Assembly: GCF_024700885.2 (NCBI RefSeq)
Contig: NZ_CP117016.1
Strand: one strand, 5' to 3'
DNA: 64,000 nt
DNA from: Escherichia coli
GTDB taxonomy: Bacteria; Pseudomonadota; Gammaproteobacteria; Enterobacterales; Enterobacteriaceae
The notes beneath the pieces were generated by a model. The model was given only the letters and a program-made list of their open reading frames with translations, was not told the DNA's origin and did not search any database. This document shows, piece after piece, positions 7,080-49,629 of the stretch (its first letter is position 1; each line of letters begins with the position of its first letter). Position numbers and translations under genes: made by a program.

Positions 7080-7964
7080 TCAGATTTTCAATGTATCAAT
7101 GACCATCCGCAGGGCGGGGGAGACGTTGCGATGAGGGTAATAGAGAAACAATCCCTCCATTCGCAGGCTGTAACGCTGCAACACCCTGATAAGCTTACCG
7201 TGTTCTAAATCATCCGCGACCAGTTCAACAGGAACATAGGCCAATCCGAGGCCCAGCCGGGCTGCTTCTGCTTCCATATAGCTGTCGGATAAGGCCCATT
7301 GCCCTTCAGGGCGATGAGTGATTTTTTTATCATCCTGATTGAGTTCCCACTGGTATACGCTGCCGTCGGCAAACTGATAGGCGATACAGGGATGCGCCTT
7401 TAAATCCGCCGGGGTTTGCGGAAAACCATAGCGACGAAAATGTTCCGGAGTCCCCACAATTGCCATCTCCATATCGGGCGTGATGCGTACCGCGACCATA
7501 CCCTGGCCGACTTCAGGCCCCAGGCGGACACCTGCATCGAATCTTTCCTCGATGATATCGACGAACCGGCTCTCATTTATCAGTTCAAGCCGGATATCAG
7601 GATATCTCTGTTTAAATACCGCCAGCTTTGGCAGCAGGCATTTATCAATCGCGTGCTGGCTGGCATTGATACGCACCGTGCCGGAGGGCGTCTCTCGATA
7701 GTGCGCCAGCGTGGCAAGCCCAAGATCTAACATTTCAAATCCAGATGCCGTCTTCTGGTAGAGCTGCTCGCCTGCTTGTGTCAGCGACAGTTTACGCGTG
7801 GTGCGCACTAGCAGCTGGACGCCCAGCCTTTCTTCAAGCTCGCGAACAGAACGGCTGACTCCTGACTGAGCAAGACCCAGCCGCTGAGCCGCTGCGGTAA
7901 AGCTGCCTTCCCGCACCACCTGCATAAACAGGTACAGCTCGTTGTAGTTCTCCCTTTTCGCCAT
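7080..7964 (-). CDS. LysR-family transcriptional regulator (294 aa)
   Basis: N-terminal HTH FMQVVREGSFTAAAQRLGLAQSGVSRSV; C-terminal LysR substrate-binding domain; divergent from hydrolase gene. Confidence 0.85.
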   Translation of the reverse strand: MAKRENYNELYLFMQVVREGSFTAAAQRLGLAQSGVSRSVRELEERLGVQLLVRTTRKLSLTQAGEQLYQKTASGFEMLDLGLATLAHYRETPSGTVRINASQHAIDKCLLPKLAVFKQRYPDIRLELINESRFVDIIEERFDAGVRLGPEVGQGMVAVRITPDMEMAIVGTPEHFRRYGFPQTPADLKAHPCIAYQFADGSVYQWELNQDDKKITHRPEGQWALSDSYMEAEAARLGLGLAYVPVELVADDLEHGKLIRVLQRYSLRMEGLFLYYPHRNVSPALRMVIDTLKI

Positions 7965-8150
7965 TGAAACATCCCCCCTTCATGCCGGCAATCTCCGCAT
8001 TAATTTATAACAATATGGTATTAATCTTAGCATTAATCGCCCCCTAATCAGCACTAATTCTGCTCACTATAATGACCCCATCAAAGTAAAGCACCGCAGC
8101 GTTGTCCGTCGGAAACCTGTATCTCTCTGTTGTTTTTTATGGGGATTTTT

Positions 8151-9279
8151 ATGAAAGCCTTCACCCGCACGCTAAAAACCGCGATGCCGACCATGCTGCT
8201 TTTCGCATCATTAAGTGGAGTCACGACAATGAGTTATGCTGATTCAACCAATCCTAATGCCCCTGTGTCCATGACAGATAAATGGGATAAAACGTTCGCC
8301 GAGAGCCAGAAAGTCGATCACCGTAAAGTCTCGTTCCCGAACCGATATGGCATCACCTTAGTGGGCGATCTTTACCTGCCTAAAGACCGTGGCGATCGCA
8401 AGCTGGCGGCGATTGCGGTCAGTGGGCCATTTGGCGCGGTGAAAGAGCAATCCAGCGGCTTGTATGCGCAGACGCTGGCGGAACGAGGGTTTGTTACCCT
8501 GGCGTTCGATCCTTCTTACACCGGGGAAAGCGGCGGCTATCCGCGAAACGTCGCCTCACCGGATATCAACACTGAAGATTTCAGCGCGGCGGTGGATTTC
8601 TTAGGGCTGCAAAAAGAGGTAGATCGCAACCGTATCGGGCTGCTCGGTATTTGTGGCTGGGGCGGCATGGCGCTGAACGACGTGGCGATGGATACCCGCG
8701 TTAAAGCGGTAGCTACCAGCGTGATGTATGACATGAGCCGGGCGATGGGTCATGGTGTGGGGGATGGCAAAGACCGTTATTCTACCGCCGACCGTCGTGC
8801 CGTTCTGCAATATCTGAATGAACAGCGCTGGAAGGATGCGCAGAGCGGAACGTTCGCTCACGGTGGTCATGATATTAATGTCGACAGCAACGGCAAGGTC
8901 AGTGCGGGCGAGCGCATTCTGCCAGAAACGCTGCCGGCAAATCCTCATCCGGTACTGAAAGAGTTCTTTGACTACTATCGCATGCCGCGCGGCTTCCACG
9001 AACGTTCCGTTAACTCTACCGGGGCGTGGACGGCAACGATGCCGCTGGAATATGCCGCTGTTGAGCTACGCCAGTGAAATCACCATCCCGACGCTGATTG
9101 TGACCGGTGAGAAAGCGCATTCACGCTATTTTGCTGAAGATGCTTACAAGGTGGTTGGCAGTAACGACAAAGAGCTGGTGGTGGTACCAGGGGCAAATCA
9201 CGTGGACCTGTACGATAACGTGGCCGGAAAAATACCTTTCGCGAAGTTCGAACAATTTTTCCAGACCAAACTGAAATAA
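8151..9279 (+). pseudogene. Alpha/beta hydrolase (dienelactone hydrolase-like), secreted; disrupted by frameshift from a 13-bp tandem duplication
   Basis: Frame 0 ORF (8130/8151-9077) and frame +1 ORF (to 9279) together make one hydrolase with signal peptide and C-terminal GANH His motif. ATGCCGCTG occurs twice (9039-9047, 9052-9060) separated by GAAT; removing 13 bp restores one 371-aa frame. Paralog of 28049-28969. Confidence 0.65.
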
Positions 9280-9354
9280 AACCTCTCCTGAATTGATGCA
9301 AAGCCACCGGCCATAGGCTGGTGGCTTTTATCCTGATCTTTGTGAAATTTCACT

Positions 9355-24305: not shown

Positions 24306-25228
24306 TTACAGGTGCATTCAGTTTCCTTAGTAAACCGGAGGTAAATAAGATACGTAGTACATATCAATAAAGGTTAAACGAGATTAAGTTTAATTATTTT
24401 CGATTGGGCTTAAATTTATGTTTTTTTCCCGATGAGTGTCAATATGTGAACGGAAAAGGAATTCAATGGTTAAGTCAATATTTAGAAAAACTGAAAATAT
24501 TGCTTTTTTGATAAGAAGAAAAAGACATTTAGTTTCATAAGGTTATTGGCAATATAACGTTCATTTCTTACTTGCATTTTATATTGGTCAGGAACTTTGC
24601 CCTGAAGTGTTAGGAATAGTCTTAATGCGCTGTGTGATGGACTAGTAAAAAAACAAGTTTTAAGGGTAAGGGATAGAATATAAAACTATTATGAGCTGTC
24701 ATTGAAGATGATTTGCCAATCAGTAAGATATTTTAATGGATTAACATGCCGCACAAAATGGTTATAGGTGTTCATTACAATAAGTGATGGAAAATTGAAC
24801 GGGTATAAGTACGTCATCTGTTCGGTAAGTCCCCCAAGAGCCAAATTAAGTGAAGTTAAACGAAGGCTGCCAGCTGTCACAGGAACGATGGCCTCTTTGT
24901 CAGGGCACTGCATTCAGTCATCTGTGCGCATTACTCTAACTGGCACTCGAACGTCAGCGACGGGGTTACCGGTGGATCAGGCTGTTCCTGTGGCGTAAAC
25001 GTTTTTATGTTAGTACCAACAGATTTACCACATTTATCATCTTAACAGTTTGAGTGAAAATGCAGGCTGCGCCGCAAAGGGAGGAGACTGATGGCGTGTT
25101 CAGTCTAAAAGAGGGTTGATGCCAGCATACAGGGGCGAAGCTGGTCAACACGTCAACATTAATATAATGGAATATTCGGAGAGAAACGTCAGGCAGTTGA
25201 CCTTAAATGAACAGGAAGATACATCCCC

Positions 25229-25268
25229 AGGAAAATTAATGCTGGTGTAATAAATACACCAACATTAA
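25229..25268 (-). terminator. Intrinsic terminator of the rpmE2-rpmJ2 operon
   Basis: 14-bp stem TTAATGCTGGTGTA / TACACCAACATTAA (one G-U) then, on the minus strand, TTTTCC. Confidence 0.6.
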
Positions 25269-25319
25269 TCCGGTCTGATTATTAATCAGACAAATATCGT
25301 TAATTCGTCGAATTTTAAA

Positions 25320-46158: not shown

Positions 46159-46846
46159 TCGGAGCGAATTTTTGAATAACGTTGCTCAGGCACTGGGTCG
46201 CCCGCTGCGACTTGAACCGCAAGCAGAAGATGCGCCGCTTAACAACTATGCTAACGAGCGGCTTACCGAACTTAACCAACAGCAGCGCTGTGACGCGTTT
46301 ATCCAGTTTGCCAGCGATGTTATGTTGACGCGCTGTGAACTGACCAGCGAGGCGCAGGCCGCAGAAGCTGCAATACGTCTGTGTAAAGAGCTGGGAGATC
46401 AGTCGATCGTGATTAGCGGTGACACGAGGCTGGAGGAATTGGGGATTAGCGAACGTTTGCAGCAGGAATGCAATGCCGTTGTTTGGGATCCGGCGAAAGG
46501 TGCCGAGAATATCTCGCAGGCAGAGCAGGCTAAGGTGGGTGTCGTGTATGCTGAATATGGTTTAACCGAATCGGGAGGCGTGGTTCTTTTTTCCGCCGCC
46601 GAGCGCGGGCGTTCATTGAGCCTGCTCCCGGAATCTTCTCTTTTTATCCTGCGTAAAAGCACAATCCTGCCGCGTGTAGCGCAACTCGCAGAAAAATTGC
46701 ATCAGAAAGCGCAGGCCGGTGAACGAATGCCTTCCTGCATTAACATCATTAGCGGCCCCAGTTCAACGGCGGATATTGAGCTTATCAAAGTCGTCGGAGT
46801 TCATGGCCCGGTGAAAGCGGTGTATCTGATTATTGAGGATTGTTGA
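46151..46846 (+). CDS. ykgG: LutC-like protein YkgG, 231 aa
   Basis: Start ATG 46151 overlaps ykgF stop; the track ORF from 45998 is out of context. Confidence 0.8.
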   Translation: MDNRSEFLNNVAQALGRPLRLEPQAEDAPLNNYANERLTELNQQQRCDAFIQFASDVMLTRCELTSEAQAAEAAIRLCKELGDQSIVISGDTRLEELGISERLQQECNAVVWDPAKGAENISQAEQAKVGVVYAEYGLTESGGVVLFSAAERGRSLSLLPESSLFILRKSTILPRVAQLAEKLHQKAQAGERMPSCINIISGPSSTADIELIKVVGVHGPVKAVYLIIEDC

Positions 46847-46956
46847 GAGAGATATGAAGTCTGGACATAAACCTGAAGAAGGCATACGAGGTTGAAAATA
46901 GCGTTTAGGACAACCTGACTTAACCCCGTTCTGTCATGGTTATGCTCCTCTTCTTT

Positions 46957-46989
46957 AAATATCCTGGCATTAGTAATGCCAGGATATTT
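46957..46989. terminator. Bidirectional hairpin between convergent ykgG and ykgH
   Basis: Perfect 14-bp stem AAATATCCTGGCAT / ATGCCAGGATATTT with 5-nt loop. Confidence 0.5.
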
Positions 46990-47088
46990 ACAGTGAAAAA
47001 GACAGGCATCCATTCCTGAAAACGGGTTCCCTTCCCGGTCATTGTCACTTCAGTTTTATACAGGCACTCTCTATCAGAATGCTGTTTA

Positions 47089-47661
47089 TTACTGCCCAGA
47101 GTTTTGTTGGTATTCATCTACCATTTTTTTGACAAGGCAAAACATTACAGAAATCACAATGCTTAGAAAAAATCCCAGAATCAGGCAAATGGCAGCAGGA
47201 TATTTACTTTTTATTTCTAGTGAGCTTATAGTTACACAGCCATCACCGTTCGGATACAATGACCAGTTCCTGGTCAGGTATATCATTTTTGTATAAAGCT
47301 CACTGTTAATTGCTGAAGGTGTTTGTATCTCATCGAGAACTTGCCTGCCATTATGATATTCTGACGCATACCATTTGATAATAGACGCCTGCACGCGAGA
47401 TATTTCCGCTTCAGCAGTTGGTAAATCTCTCTTATCTCCTGACCATTCCAGCTTTATTTCTCTGTTCTTGACATCTGGGCTGGTGTGAAAAAATGTAGTA
47501 ATTCGCTGTATAACATCTTCAGTCATTGTGGTCTGACAGGCAAAGTTATTATTGCTATCACAGCTAACAAGTATGCCAGGTGTTGTCTGGTTTATTTTTA
47601 GACTGTAACTCACTTTTATATTATCTTTATTGATATACAGAAACAACAGCACCATTGCCAT
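47089..47661 (-). CDS. ykgH: YkgH membrane/periplasmic protein; N-terminal segment appears separated by a 1-nt frameshift (see findings)
   Basis: 190-aa ORF begins mid-TM-helix (MAMVLLFLY). Upstream 24-codon ORF (47673-47744) with ATG encodes MNEQIKQDINLIEILK and joins in frame if one T is added to the T5 run at 47696-47700. Confidence 0.6.
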   Translation of the reverse strand: MAMVLLFLYINKDNIKVSYSLKINQTTPGILVSCDSNNNFACQTTMTEDVIQRITTFFHTSPDVKNREIKLEWSGDKRDLPTAEAEISRVQASIIKWYASEYHNGRQVLDEIQTPSAINSELYTKMIYLTRNWSLYPNGDGCVTISSLEIKSKYPAAICLILGFFLSIVISVMFCLVKKMVDEYQQNSGQ

Positions 47662-47940
47662 ACAGATAGCTATAATAAAAAGGATAACACGAATCTTTTT
47701 AAAATCTCAATCAGATTGATATCCTGTTTGATTTGTTCATTCATAATATATCCAGAAAATGAAATCTGTCGCAGATAATATTGTATTAATAGTCTGTATC
47801 AGGAATGTTCGGGTTAAATATCAGCGAAAAACCAGCATCATGAATACTGGATATGAAGCATGAGAGTTACCTCAATGTTCTATATAACGATTCGGTCCCC
47901 ATACCTGGAACGGTAACTCTCAATCTGATAGGTTCCTGAG

Positions 47941-49629
47941 TTAGTTCAAATCACGACTCATTTTTTTCGCTCTTACTGGCATCCCATTTGCCACAAAATA
48001 TCTTGCCGTGCTCCTCGGCAACGCTTCCTGTCCACGAATCATGTCCGCTATTTTCTCGCCAATCATAATTGTCGTGGCGTTCAAATTCCCGGTGATAATC
48101 TGCGGCATAATTGACGCATCCACCACGCGCAGGCCTTCCAGCCCGTGTACGCGGCCTTCGGCGTCAACCACTGCCATCTCGTCATAACCCATTTTGCAGG
48201 TACCGCACGGATGAAACGCGGTTTCGGCGTGGTTACGCACGAACTCATCGAGCTGCTCATCCGTCTGACATTCCGCGCCGGGGCTGATTTCGCGGCCACG
48301 GTATTGATCCAGCGCGGGTTGATGCATGATCTCGCGGGTGATGCGAATTGCGTCGCGGAACTCCTGCCAGTCCTGCTCGTGCGACATGTAGTTAAACAGA
48401 ATTCCCGGATGCTGGTGCGGGTCGCGGGATTTAATCCGCACATGCCCACGGCTTGGCGAGCGCATCGATCCGACGTGGCACTGGAAGCCGTGCTCTTTCA
48501 CTGCGTTCGAGCCGTTATAGTTAATCGCCACTGGCAGGAAATGGTACTGAATATTCGGCCACGTAAATTCCTCACGGCTGCGAATAAATCCGCCAGCTTC
48601 AAAGTGGTTGCTGGCACCAACGCCGGTGCCGCCAAACAGCCACTCCGCACCGATTTTCGGCTGATTCCACCACTGCAGGGCAGGGTAGAGGGAAACCGGT
48701 TCTTTGCACTCATATTGCAGATACATCTCCAGGTGATCCTGAAGATTTTCGCCGACGCCAGGTAATTCATGCACCAGCGGAATATCAAACTCCGCCAGCA
48801 GTCCAGCGTTGCCGACGCCGGAGCGTTGCAGGATCTGCGGTGAAGCAATCGCGCCTGCACATAACAGCACTTCTTTATTCGCCGCCGCGCGGGTCGGAAT
48901 GGTGCTGTCGCCTTCCAGCCACTCGACGCCCACCGCGCGTTTGCCATCAAAAATGATGTGATCGGTCATGGCGTGAGTACGAATGGTCAGGTTAGGGCGC
49001 GATTTGGCCTGATCGAGATAGCCACGCGCGGTGCTGGCGCGACGGCCCTGCGGTGTGACGGTGCGATCCATCGGGCCAAAACCTTCCTGCTGATAGCCGT
49101 TGAGATCGTCCGTGCGCGGGTAGCCTGCCTGCACGCCCGCTTCAATCATCGCTTCAAACAGCGGATTGACGCCGGGTTTGGAGGTGGTGACGCTCACCGG
49201 GCCGTCGCCGCCGTGGTAGTCGTTCTCGCCCACGTCGCGAGTCTCGGCCTTGCGGTAGTAGGGCAGGCAGTCGAGATAACTCCAGTTCTCCAGGCCAGGT
49301 TCTTGCGCCCAGTTGTCGAGATCCAGCGCGTTGCCACGGATGTAGCACATGCCGTTGATCAGCGACGATCCACCCAGGCCTTTACCGCGTCCGCACTCCA
49401 TGCGGCGGTTATTCATAAACGGTTCAGGTTCCGTTTCATAGGCCCAGTTGTAGCGTTTACCCTGTAACGGGAATGCCAGCGCGGCGGGCATCTGGGTGCG
49501 GAAGTCAAAGCGATAGTCCGGGCCGCCTGCTTCAAGCAGCAGCACGGTTATGTTCGGATCTTCAGTCAGACGGGTAGCGAGGACGTTGCCGGCTGAGCCG
49601 GCACCAATAATGATGTAGTCAAATTGCAA
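47941..49629 (-). CDS. betA: Choline dehydrogenase BetA
   Basis: FAD motif [14 protein letters not shown] start with perfect AGGAGG RBS assumed; start uncertain. Confidence 0.85.

What the first reader, a model, noticed from the sequence alone, without database searches (positions are those of the whole stretch)
47662..47744. ykgH N-terminus split by a 1-nt frameshift in a T5/A4 homopolymer
A 24-codon ORF with a good ATG (47744) encodes MNEQIKQDINLIEILK. The main ORF starts at MAMVLLF in the middle of what would be one TM helix (KKIRVILFIIAICMAMVLLFLYI). Adding one T to the run at 47696-47700 joins the two into a roughly 218-aa protein. This is a possible pseudogene, slippage-prone site or sequencing error.
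Basis: seen in the sequence. Interest (0 to 1): 0.35.

Follow-up and report, generated by a model that had tools for sequence, protein, structure and literature searches.

The report
ykgH killed by 13-bp deletion
In this E. coli window the small membrane-protein gene ykgH is a pseudogene, broken by an inherited 13-base deletion near its start rather than by a one-base slip or a sequencing error, and the public annotation already flags it as frameshifted.

Summary
A 24-codon ORF (47744..47670, -) and a 190-codon ORF (47661..47089, -) lie in different frames on either side of a T5/A4 run (47696-47704, +). One added base would fuse them into 218 aa.

The proposed cause does not hold. Intact ykgH alleles (K-12 and more than 4,600 complete genomes, 221-222 aa) carry 13 extra bases, ATTTTATCTGAAG, exactly at this point. 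The lesion is therefore a 13-bp deletion that removes codons 15-19 (LFYLK). The homopolymer pair is simply the new junction.

The same deletion occurs in 27 of 5,426 complete E. coli genomes: 21 with an identical junction and 6 of an O7:H15/ST70-like lineage. They come from different hosts and countries. None has a ±1 variant of the run, and one also carries IS2 in the dead gene. This rules out sequencing error and phase variation. PGAP already marks the locus "frameshifted".

The missing segment lies in the most conserved motif of the family (IDLxELxxFLKxK, just before TM1). The 190-aa remnant has no Shine-Dalgarno sequence and only half of TM1. Loss of function is the best reading.

A side result: YkgH looks like a miniature polysaccharide co-polymerase (Wzz/Wzc/KpsE fold).

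An unproven curiosity: the junction forms U UUA AAA, a heptamer in the correct frame for a -1 ribosomal slip. No stimulatory element accompanies it.

The parts
47089..47744 (-). ykgH pseudogene (656 nt, against 666-669 nt in intact alleles), lying between betA and ykgG
   Evidence: It is 94-96% identical over its full length to annotated ykgH in more than 4,800 genomes. Synteny betA|ykgH|ykgGFE matches K-12. PGAP annotates exactly this span as 'hypothetical protein, frameshifted' in strains 1190 and MLI114.
47670..47744 (-). 5' fragment: original start codon plus 14 native codons, L15 kept by a changed codon (TTA), then 9 out-of-frame codons and a TAG stop
   Evidence: 24-aa ORF. Alignment with K-12, O128:H27 and 33F4 alleles.
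47696..47704 (.). Deletion junction. The 13 bp ATTTTATCTGAAG of intact alleles are missing between 47701 and 47700, or equivalently one base further (1-nt microhomology, A). The T5/A4 run (plus strand) is the scar.
   Evidence: Searches show a 13-column gap shared only by the window, L001, L004 and L005. Placement ambiguity was read directly from the alignment.
47697..47703 (-). U UUA AAA: a heptamer of X XXY YYZ form in the zero frame of the 5' fragment. A -1 slip here enters the long ORF frame. Hypothetical bypass site, not shown to work.
   Evidence: heptamer found in frame; the -1 product is 218 aa. (no downstream structure, z = 0.13).
47089..47661 (-). 3' remnant ORF (190 aa) covering the distal half of TM1, the periplasmic domain and TM2. 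No Shine-Dalgarno sequence precedes its ATG. The upstream ORF's TAG lies 8 nt before it.
   Evidence: The upstream sequence is tatagctatctgtATG. The best 19-residue hydropathy window falls from 3.17 in the intact protein to 0.82.
46956..46990 (.). 35-nt perfect palindrome (TAAATATCCTGGCATTA-C-TAATGCCAGGATATTTA) between the convergent genes ykgH and ykgG. Probably a shared terminator hairpin.
   Evidence: Read. The Rfam scan gave only spurious sub-threshold miRNA-type hairpin hits here. The terminator function is inferred.

Best explanation
The window carries a lineage-specific, vertically inherited pseudogene of ykgH. A single 13-bp deletion with only 1 nt of microhomology removed ATTTTATCTGAAG from codons 15-19 (L-F-Y-L-K). 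This shifts the frame, so translation from the native ATG ends after 24 codons.

Shown:
- the deletion itself;
- its presence in 27 complete genomes;
- its position inside the conserved N-terminal motif that precedes TM1.

Inferred:
- Loss of function. The only long ORF left begins in the middle of TM1, has no ribosome-binding site, and would lack the signal-anchor needed to place the roughly 130-aa middle domain in the periplasm.
- Dispensability. The gene seems to be expendable, so the dead allele persists and has picked up an IS2 in one carrier.
For: - **The deletion.** A 13-nt gap is present relative to K-12, O128:H27, 33F4, PCN033 and 50579417 alleles. The intact proteins are 221-222 aa.
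- **Distribution.** A junction-spanning 96-nt query found 21 genomes at 100% and 6 at 99% with no gap. About 4,680 others aligned at 80-90% identity; every such row listed is 87.2% over 109 record bases, that is, with the 13-nt gap. The carriers come from dog, human, chicken, lake water and seawater, and from the UK, Japan, Mali, Italy and France.
- **Existing annotation.** PGAP labels the locus 'frameshifted' in all five carrier genomes inspected.
- **A second hit.** IS2 is inserted in the same dead allele in isolate F344.
- **Conservation of the deleted segment.** Remote homologues at 20-30% identity keep the motif IDLxELxxFLKxK with no length variation between it and TM1.
- **Weakness of the remnant.** It has no Shine-Dalgarno sequence and only 10 hydrophobic residues at its N-terminus. 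It gives no Pfam or NCBIfam signal.
- **Dispensability.** The gene has no match in 266 of 5,426 genomes and only a partial match in about 280 more. It is used as a neutral chromosomal integration site (PMC9923381).
Against: - Loss of function was not measured.
- The remnant ORF is still fully open over 190 codons in both carrier lineages.
- The upstream ORF's stop codon lies 8 nt before the remnant's ATG, so some re-initiation is conceivable.
- The junction forms a slippery heptamer in the correct frame, which could give a trace of full-length (delta-4) protein.
- The window allele and the ST70-like allele differ mostly by synonymous changes. Taken at face value this suggests continuing constraint. 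However, those differences are also found in intact alleles of other strains, so they are recombined standing variation, not change that accumulated after the deletion.
Confidence: 0.88

Rival explanations
1. One-base homopolymer slip or sequencing/assembly error in the T5/A4 run. On this view the true gene is intact or differs by a single base.
For: Adding one base does restore a 218-aa ORF. Homopolymers are typical sites of such errors (general knowledge).
Against: Intact alleles differ by 13 bases, not 1. The restored 218-aa protein would still lack 4 conserved residues. The identical junction is found in 27 complete genomes from many laboratories and in two diverged lineages. A 13-bp loss in non-repetitive sequence is not a typical platform error.
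Confidence: 0.02
2. Leaky pseudogene or recoding. Ribosomes slip -1 on U UUA AAA (47703-47697), or terminating ribosomes re-initiate at ATG 47661. Either way some YkgH-like protein is still made and the allele stays under selection.
For: The heptamer has X XXY YYZ form in the correct zero frame, and the required shift is -1. The remnant ORF is uninterrupted in both carrier lineages. The upstream ORF's stop is 8 nt from the next ATG.
Against: There is no downstream stimulatory structure (-11.4 kcal/mol against a shuffle mean of -11.7, z = 0.13). No Shine-Dalgarno-like element lies 10-14 nt upstream (sequence read). In E. coli an A-site AAA is a much weaker shifter than AAG (general knowledge of dnaX-type sites). 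The heptamer is a by-product of the deletion; by my own rough estimate (not a tool result) a chance occurrence in the roughly 10-codon overlap window has a probability of about 4-10%. One carrier has IS2 in the gene. The re-initiation product lacks half of TM1. The apparent low dN/dS is explained by recombination mosaicism.
Confidence: 0.06
3. Phase-variable switch: the short A/T runs change length reversibly to turn ykgH on and off.
For: Two adjacent homopolymers sit at the frame break.
Against: The runs are only 4 and 5 nt. All 27 carriers have exactly the same lengths, and no full-length, near-identical hit with a 1-nt gap appeared among 5,426 genomes. Restoring the frame would not restore the lost residues.
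Confidence: 0.02

Closest known systems
ykgH (b0310) of E. coli K-12 and its orthologues ('protein YkgH', 221-222 aa, uncharacterised inner-membrane protein)
   Same: Same locus (betA | ykgH | ykgGFE) and 94-96% nucleotide identity over the whole gene. The start codon position, stop region, TM1, TM2 and middle domain are the same.
   Different: 13 bp (codons 15-19) are missing, so the reading frame is broken. N2 replaces R2 as in the 33F4 allele, and the 3' third carries the PCN033-type variants S184 and I193; L180 is specific to the carrier lineage.
Frameshifted ykgH alleles already annotated by PGAP in RefSeq (for example CNQ48_RS19155 in strain 1190, NL414_RS20365 in MLI114, NQZ80_RS18740 in O7:H15 ST70)
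   Same: Identical lesion and identical coordinates; the window is 100% identical to these over the locus.
   Different: No difference in sequence. The annotation says only 'frameshifted' and does not say that the cause is a 13-bp deletion.
Polysaccharide co-polymerases (Wzz/FepE PCP-1, Wzc PCP-2a, KpsE PCP-3)
   Different: YkgH is much shorter (222 aa against 300-720 aa) and has no long periplasmic helical hairpin. E. coli YkgH itself is below the Pfam gathering scores (20.1 against 25.5 bits for Wzz). There is no adjacent polysaccharide gene cluster, and no chain-length function has been shown.
dnaX / IS-element type -1 programmed frameshift sites
   Same: A heptamer of X XXY YYZ form with a Lys codon in the A site, where a -1 shift gives the long product.
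   Different: The A-site codon is AAA, not AAG. There is no upstream Shine-Dalgarno-like stimulator at the right spacing and no downstream hairpin. The site is created by a deletion rather than conserved.

Membership tests
ykgH orthologue (E. coli core-genome gene b0310) | Position between betA (or the hyxAB/upaB island) and ykgG, convergent with ykgG | tested here: met
ykgH orthologue (E. coli core-genome gene b0310) | Full-length nucleotide similarity to annotated ykgH | tested here: met
   94-96% identity over 801 nt to more than 4,800 genomes
ykgH orthologue (E. coli core-genome gene b0310) | Single uninterrupted ORF of 221-222 codons | tested here: not met
   The ORF is split into 24 + 190 codons by a 13-bp deletion. 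It is therefore a pseudogene of this family, not a functional member.
Homopolymer ±1 frameshift (slippage or sequencing error) | Differs from intact alleles by one base within the run | tested here: not met
   The difference is 13 bases
Homopolymer ±1 frameshift (slippage or sequencing error) | Run length varies between closely related genomes or reads | tested here: not met
   All 27 carriers have an identical junction and no ±1 variant exists. Raw reads cannot be tested here.
Programmed -1 ribosomal frameshift site | Slippery heptamer X XXY YYZ in the zero frame, with the downstream ORF in the -1 frame | tested here: met
   U UUA AAA at 47703-47697; the -1 product is 218 aa
Programmed -1 ribosomal frameshift site | Stimulatory element: a downstream hairpin or pseudoknot, or an upstream Shine-Dalgarno-like sequence | tested here: not met
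   Folding the 91 nt downstream gives z = 0.13 against shuffles. No AGGAGG-like element lies 10-14 nt upstream.
Programmed -1 ribosomal frameshift site | Measured frameshift product | not testable with these tools
   Needs a reporter assay, Ribo-seq or mass spectrometry
Polysaccharide co-polymerase (Pfam Wzz PF02706 / GNVR PF13807) | Score above the Pfam gathering threshold | tested here: not met
   E. coli YkgH scores 18.5-20.1 bits on Wzz against a cut-off of 25.5, and 10.6 on GNVR against 27.7. Some remote relatives match GNVR at E = 6e-10.
Polysaccharide co-polymerase (Pfam Wzz PF02706 / GNVR PF13807) | PCP fold: TM1, periplasmic alpha/beta base domain, TM2 | tested here: met
   [not shown]
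Polysaccharide co-polymerase (Pfam Wzz PF02706 / GNVR PF13807) | Controls polysaccharide chain length or export; encoded with a Wzy, Wzx or ABC-transporter pathway | tested here: inconclusive
   E. coli has no polysaccharide genes next to ykgH. One remote relative lies next to a PglL/Wzy_C-type enzyme. Function cannot be tested here.

The most novel reading that the evidence does not exclude
The 13-bp deletion happened to create a working -1 recoding site (U UUA AAA). Carrier lineages would then still make a small amount of a 218-aa YkgH lacking four residues (F-Y-L-K), and the 'pseudogene' would really be a down-tuned allele kept open by selection.
Probability: 0.04. Interest if true: 0.35.

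Novelty: already known. Interest (0 to 1): 0.1.

Why it matters
It matters little biologically. This is one more dispensable accessory-like core gene lost in a minor E. coli lineage, and RefSeq already flags it.

It has three practical uses:
- It corrects the mechanism: a 13-bp deletion, not a homopolymer slip. The locus should therefore not be 'repaired' as a sequencing error or counted as a phase-variable site.
- The deletion is a clean lineage marker. It is present in 27 of 5,426 complete genomes, including O166:H15 and O7:H15/ST70 strains.
- It shows that a frame-restoring single-base edit can be a misleading diagnosis when no comparison is available.

The side observation may deserve its own follow-up. 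YkgH, a gene with no assigned function, has a miniature Wzz/Wzc/KpsE-like fold, and it or its relatives sit next to adhesin loci.

Tried and rejected
1. **dN/dS as evidence that the frameshifted gene is still under selection.** The window and the ST70-like carrier differ at 15 sites in the gene, about 9 of them synonymous. Most of the 3'-end differences are also present in intact alleles of PCN033 and 50579417. The alleles are recombination mosaics, so the comparison does not measure evolution after the deletion. Rejected as evidence.
2. **Stimulatory RNA structure downstream of the heptamer.** None was found.
3. **Rfam scan of 46500-48200.** Only sub-threshold eukaryotic miRNA/snoRNA noise on the palindrome.
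4. **Consensus promoter and terminator scan.** Many weak AT-rich promoter-like matches, none informative. One terminator-like hairpin lies at 47850-47832 (-), upstream of ykgH and downstream of betA.
5. **Direct-repeat or slipped-mispairing mechanism for the deletion.** Only 1 nt of microhomology at the junction, so no repeat-mediated mechanism is supported (read).
6. **Word-index protein search.** It found only Escherichia sequences at 73% identity or more. The exhaustive HMMER search was needed to find the roughly 10 remote relatives.
7. **Direct PDB sequence search with one sequence.** Nothing found. The family profile was needed to reach Wzz.
8. **Exact identity of the window with strain 1190.** It is not identical: 1 SNP and an 8-bp indel. 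The 8-bp deletion, seen in only one complete genome, points to strain MLI114; whole-window identity to MLI114 was not checked.

Full report
**1. What is in the sequence**

The window is E. coli chromosome. The region reads, on the minus strand, betA – ykgH – (convergent) ykgG-ykgF-ykgE.

- An ATG at 47744 opens a 24-codon ORF, MNEQIKQDINLIEILKRFVLSFLL* (47744..47670).
- A 190-codon ORF runs 47661..47089 and begins MAMVLLFLYINK.
- The plus strand has T5 at 47696-47700 and A4 at 47701-47704.
- The long ORF's frame is open upstream through DFKKIRVILFIIAICMAMVLLF.
- One added base yields a 218-aa protein.

**2. What the lesion really is**

A megablast of the locus against 5,426 complete E. coli genomes hits 5,160 of them. 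Almost all align 801 window bases to 810-814 record bases and are annotated 'ykgH: protein YkgH'.

I aligned the window with K-12, O128:H27 strain 90-9281, 33F4, PCN033 and 50579417. The window lacks 13 consecutive bases, ATTTTATCTGAAG, between ...GAGATTTT and AAAAAGATTCG.... Intact proteins read MxEQIKQDIDLIEILFYLKKKIRVILFI... and are 221-222 aa long.

The deletion takes out codons 15-19 (L-F-Y-L-K) and shifts the frame. The T5/A4 run is the scar of that deletion, not a pre-existing homopolymer that slipped. Placement is ambiguous by only one base (a single A of microhomology), so no repeat-mediated mechanism is indicated.

**3. Real or artefact, and how widespread**

- A 96-nt query spanning the junction matches without a gap in 21 genomes at 100% and in 6 more at 99%. 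About 4,680 other genomes fall in the 80-90% identity band; every such row listed is 87.2% over 109 record bases, that is, with the 13-nt gap.
- The carriers come from dog, human, chicken, lake water, seawater and a marsupial. Countries recorded for the carriers inspected include the UK, Japan, Mali, Italy and France. They include O166:H15 strains and an O7:H15 strain named ST70.
- The two carrier groups differ by 1.5-3.5% across the surrounding genes.
- PGAP labels the locus 'hypothetical protein; frameshifted' in all five carrier genomes I opened.
- No carrier or other genome shows a ±1 variant of the run.
- In isolate F344 the dead allele has also acquired an IS2 insertion.

Sequencing error and phase variation are therefore excluded. 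The window itself is probably from strain MLI114 (human stool, Mali), the only complete genome that shares an 8-bp deletion elsewhere in the window; I did not align the whole window against it.

**4. Is the gene dead?**

This part is inference, on five grounds:
- **(a) Early termination.** The native start now terminates after 24 codons.
- **(b) A weak remnant.** The remnant's ATG has no Shine-Dalgarno sequence (tatagctatctgtATG). Its N-terminus keeps only 10 hydrophobic residues of TM1. The best 19-residue hydropathy window drops from 3.17 to 0.82.
- **(c) A conserved target.** An exhaustive HMMER search found about ten full-length relatives at 20-30% identity. In their alignment the N-terminal motif IDLxELxxFLKxK is the best conserved stretch of the N-terminal third, and no sequence has an indel between it and TM1. 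Even a frame-restored protein would therefore lack conserved residues.
- **(d) Dispensability.** The gene has no match in 266 of 5,426 genomes and only a partial match in about 280 more. It is routinely used as a neutral chromosomal integration site (PMC9923381).
- **(e) A second hit.** IS2 has inserted into the dead allele in F344.

**5. Checks on the more interesting alternative**

The junction forms U UUA AAA (47703-47697). This heptamer has X XXY YYZ form in the zero frame of the 5' fragment, and the long ORF lies in the -1 frame. A -1 slip would give MNEQIKQDINLIEILKKIRVILF..., 218 aa.

I looked for support and found none:
- The 91 nt downstream fold no better than shuffles (z = 0.13).
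- No Shine-Dalgarno-like element sits at the stimulatory distance upstream.
- An A-site AAA is a poor shifter in E. coli compared with AAG (established knowledge of dnaX-type sites).
- The two carrier alleles differ mostly by synonymous changes. This is not evidence of continuing selection. Most of the window's distinctive 3' variants, including N184S and A193I, occur in intact alleles of PCN033 and 50579417. The alleles are recombination mosaics; only P180L there is private to the carrier lineage.

I keep this reading as a low-probability novel case.

**6. What the intact gene is (side result)**

The papers found give YkgH no function. They list it as a predicted inner-membrane protein, as a hit in a curli screen, as mutated in an L-form strain, and as a candidate 3'UTR sRNA host.

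Results here:
- An AlphaFold2 model built on the 15-sequence alignment has pLDDT 84. It consists of a short N-terminal helix (residues 11-20, which contains the deleted segment), TM1 (22-42), an alpha/beta domain and TM2 (188-220).
- The family profile matches the Wzz N-terminus at E = 2.9e-5.
- Nine of 15 members weakly match Pfam Wzz and 7 of 15 match GNVR, best E = 6e-10. E. coli YkgH itself stays under both gathering thresholds.

YkgH therefore works like, or at least folds like, a miniature PCP. Membership in the Pfam families is not established.

The genomic context is suggestive but thin:
- One relative lies downstream of a large autotransporter.
- Another lies next to a PglL/Wzy_C-type enzyme inside a fimbrial cluster.
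- In many E. coli strains the hyxAB/upaB autotransporter island sits directly upstream of ykgH (PMC4844996). That island is absent from the window.

**7. Verdict**

This is an ordinary lineage-specific pseudogene that is already flagged in RefSeq. Interest is low.

Noticed in passing
window 8130-9279 (+), indel at about 9047: An alpha/beta-hydrolase gene is split into 315-aa and 103-aa ORFs by an 8-bp deletion (ATAAATGA or equivalent) relative to strain 1190. Among 912 genomes carrying the gene, only strain MLI114 shares the deletion, and PGAP marks the gene 'frameshifted' there. It could be a strain-private mutation or an assembly error, and it suggests the window comes from MLI114.
   Followed up: partly
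[not shown]
   Followed up: partly
L012 1213-8136; L015 5062-8663; L003 and L006 1-3775: YkgH-family genes keep turning up beside surface-adhesin loci. One is downstream of a 1,608-aa autotransporter (L012). One is next to a PglL/Wzy_C-type O-oligosaccharyltransferase-like gene and a DsbA-like gene in a fimbrial cluster (L015). In many E. coli strains ykgH lies directly downstream of the hyxAB/upaB island, which the window lacks.
   Followed up: no
L011 1671-3662 (isolate F344, NZ_OY754421.1): One carrier of the 13-bp deletion also has an IS2 inserted in the middle of the dead ykgH.
   Followed up: yes
window 46956-46990: A perfect 17+1+17-nt palindrome lies between the convergent genes ykgH and ykgG, probably a shared terminator. 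The ykgH 3'UTR was proposed from RIL-seq as an sRNA candidate but was not confirmed by northern blot (PMC8175672).
   Followed up: partly
window 47089-47850 compared with L004, L006, L009, L010: ykgH alleles are recombination mosaics. The window's 5' end and promoter region match the ST70-like carrier. Its 3' third matches intact PCN033-type alleles with 1 SNP, against 9 SNPs to the ST70-like carrier.
   Followed up: yes
window 3530-5417 (+): Two overlapping ORFs (322 and 310 aa) correspond to a retron St85-family effector and reverse transcriptase in strain 1190's annotation. They lie next to P4-like satellite genes: polarity suppression protein, an ogr/Delta-like protein and a TOPRIM/DUF927 primase.
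   Followed up: no
window about 25060-25285 (+): ykgL is also annotated 'frameshifted' in the near-identical strain 1190. I did not check it in the window sequence itself.
   Followed up: no
L010 6031-6749 (strain 50579417): ykgE, the (Fe-S)-binding subunit of the neighbouring lactate-utilisation operon, is annotated as frameshifted in this unrelated strain.
   Followed up: no
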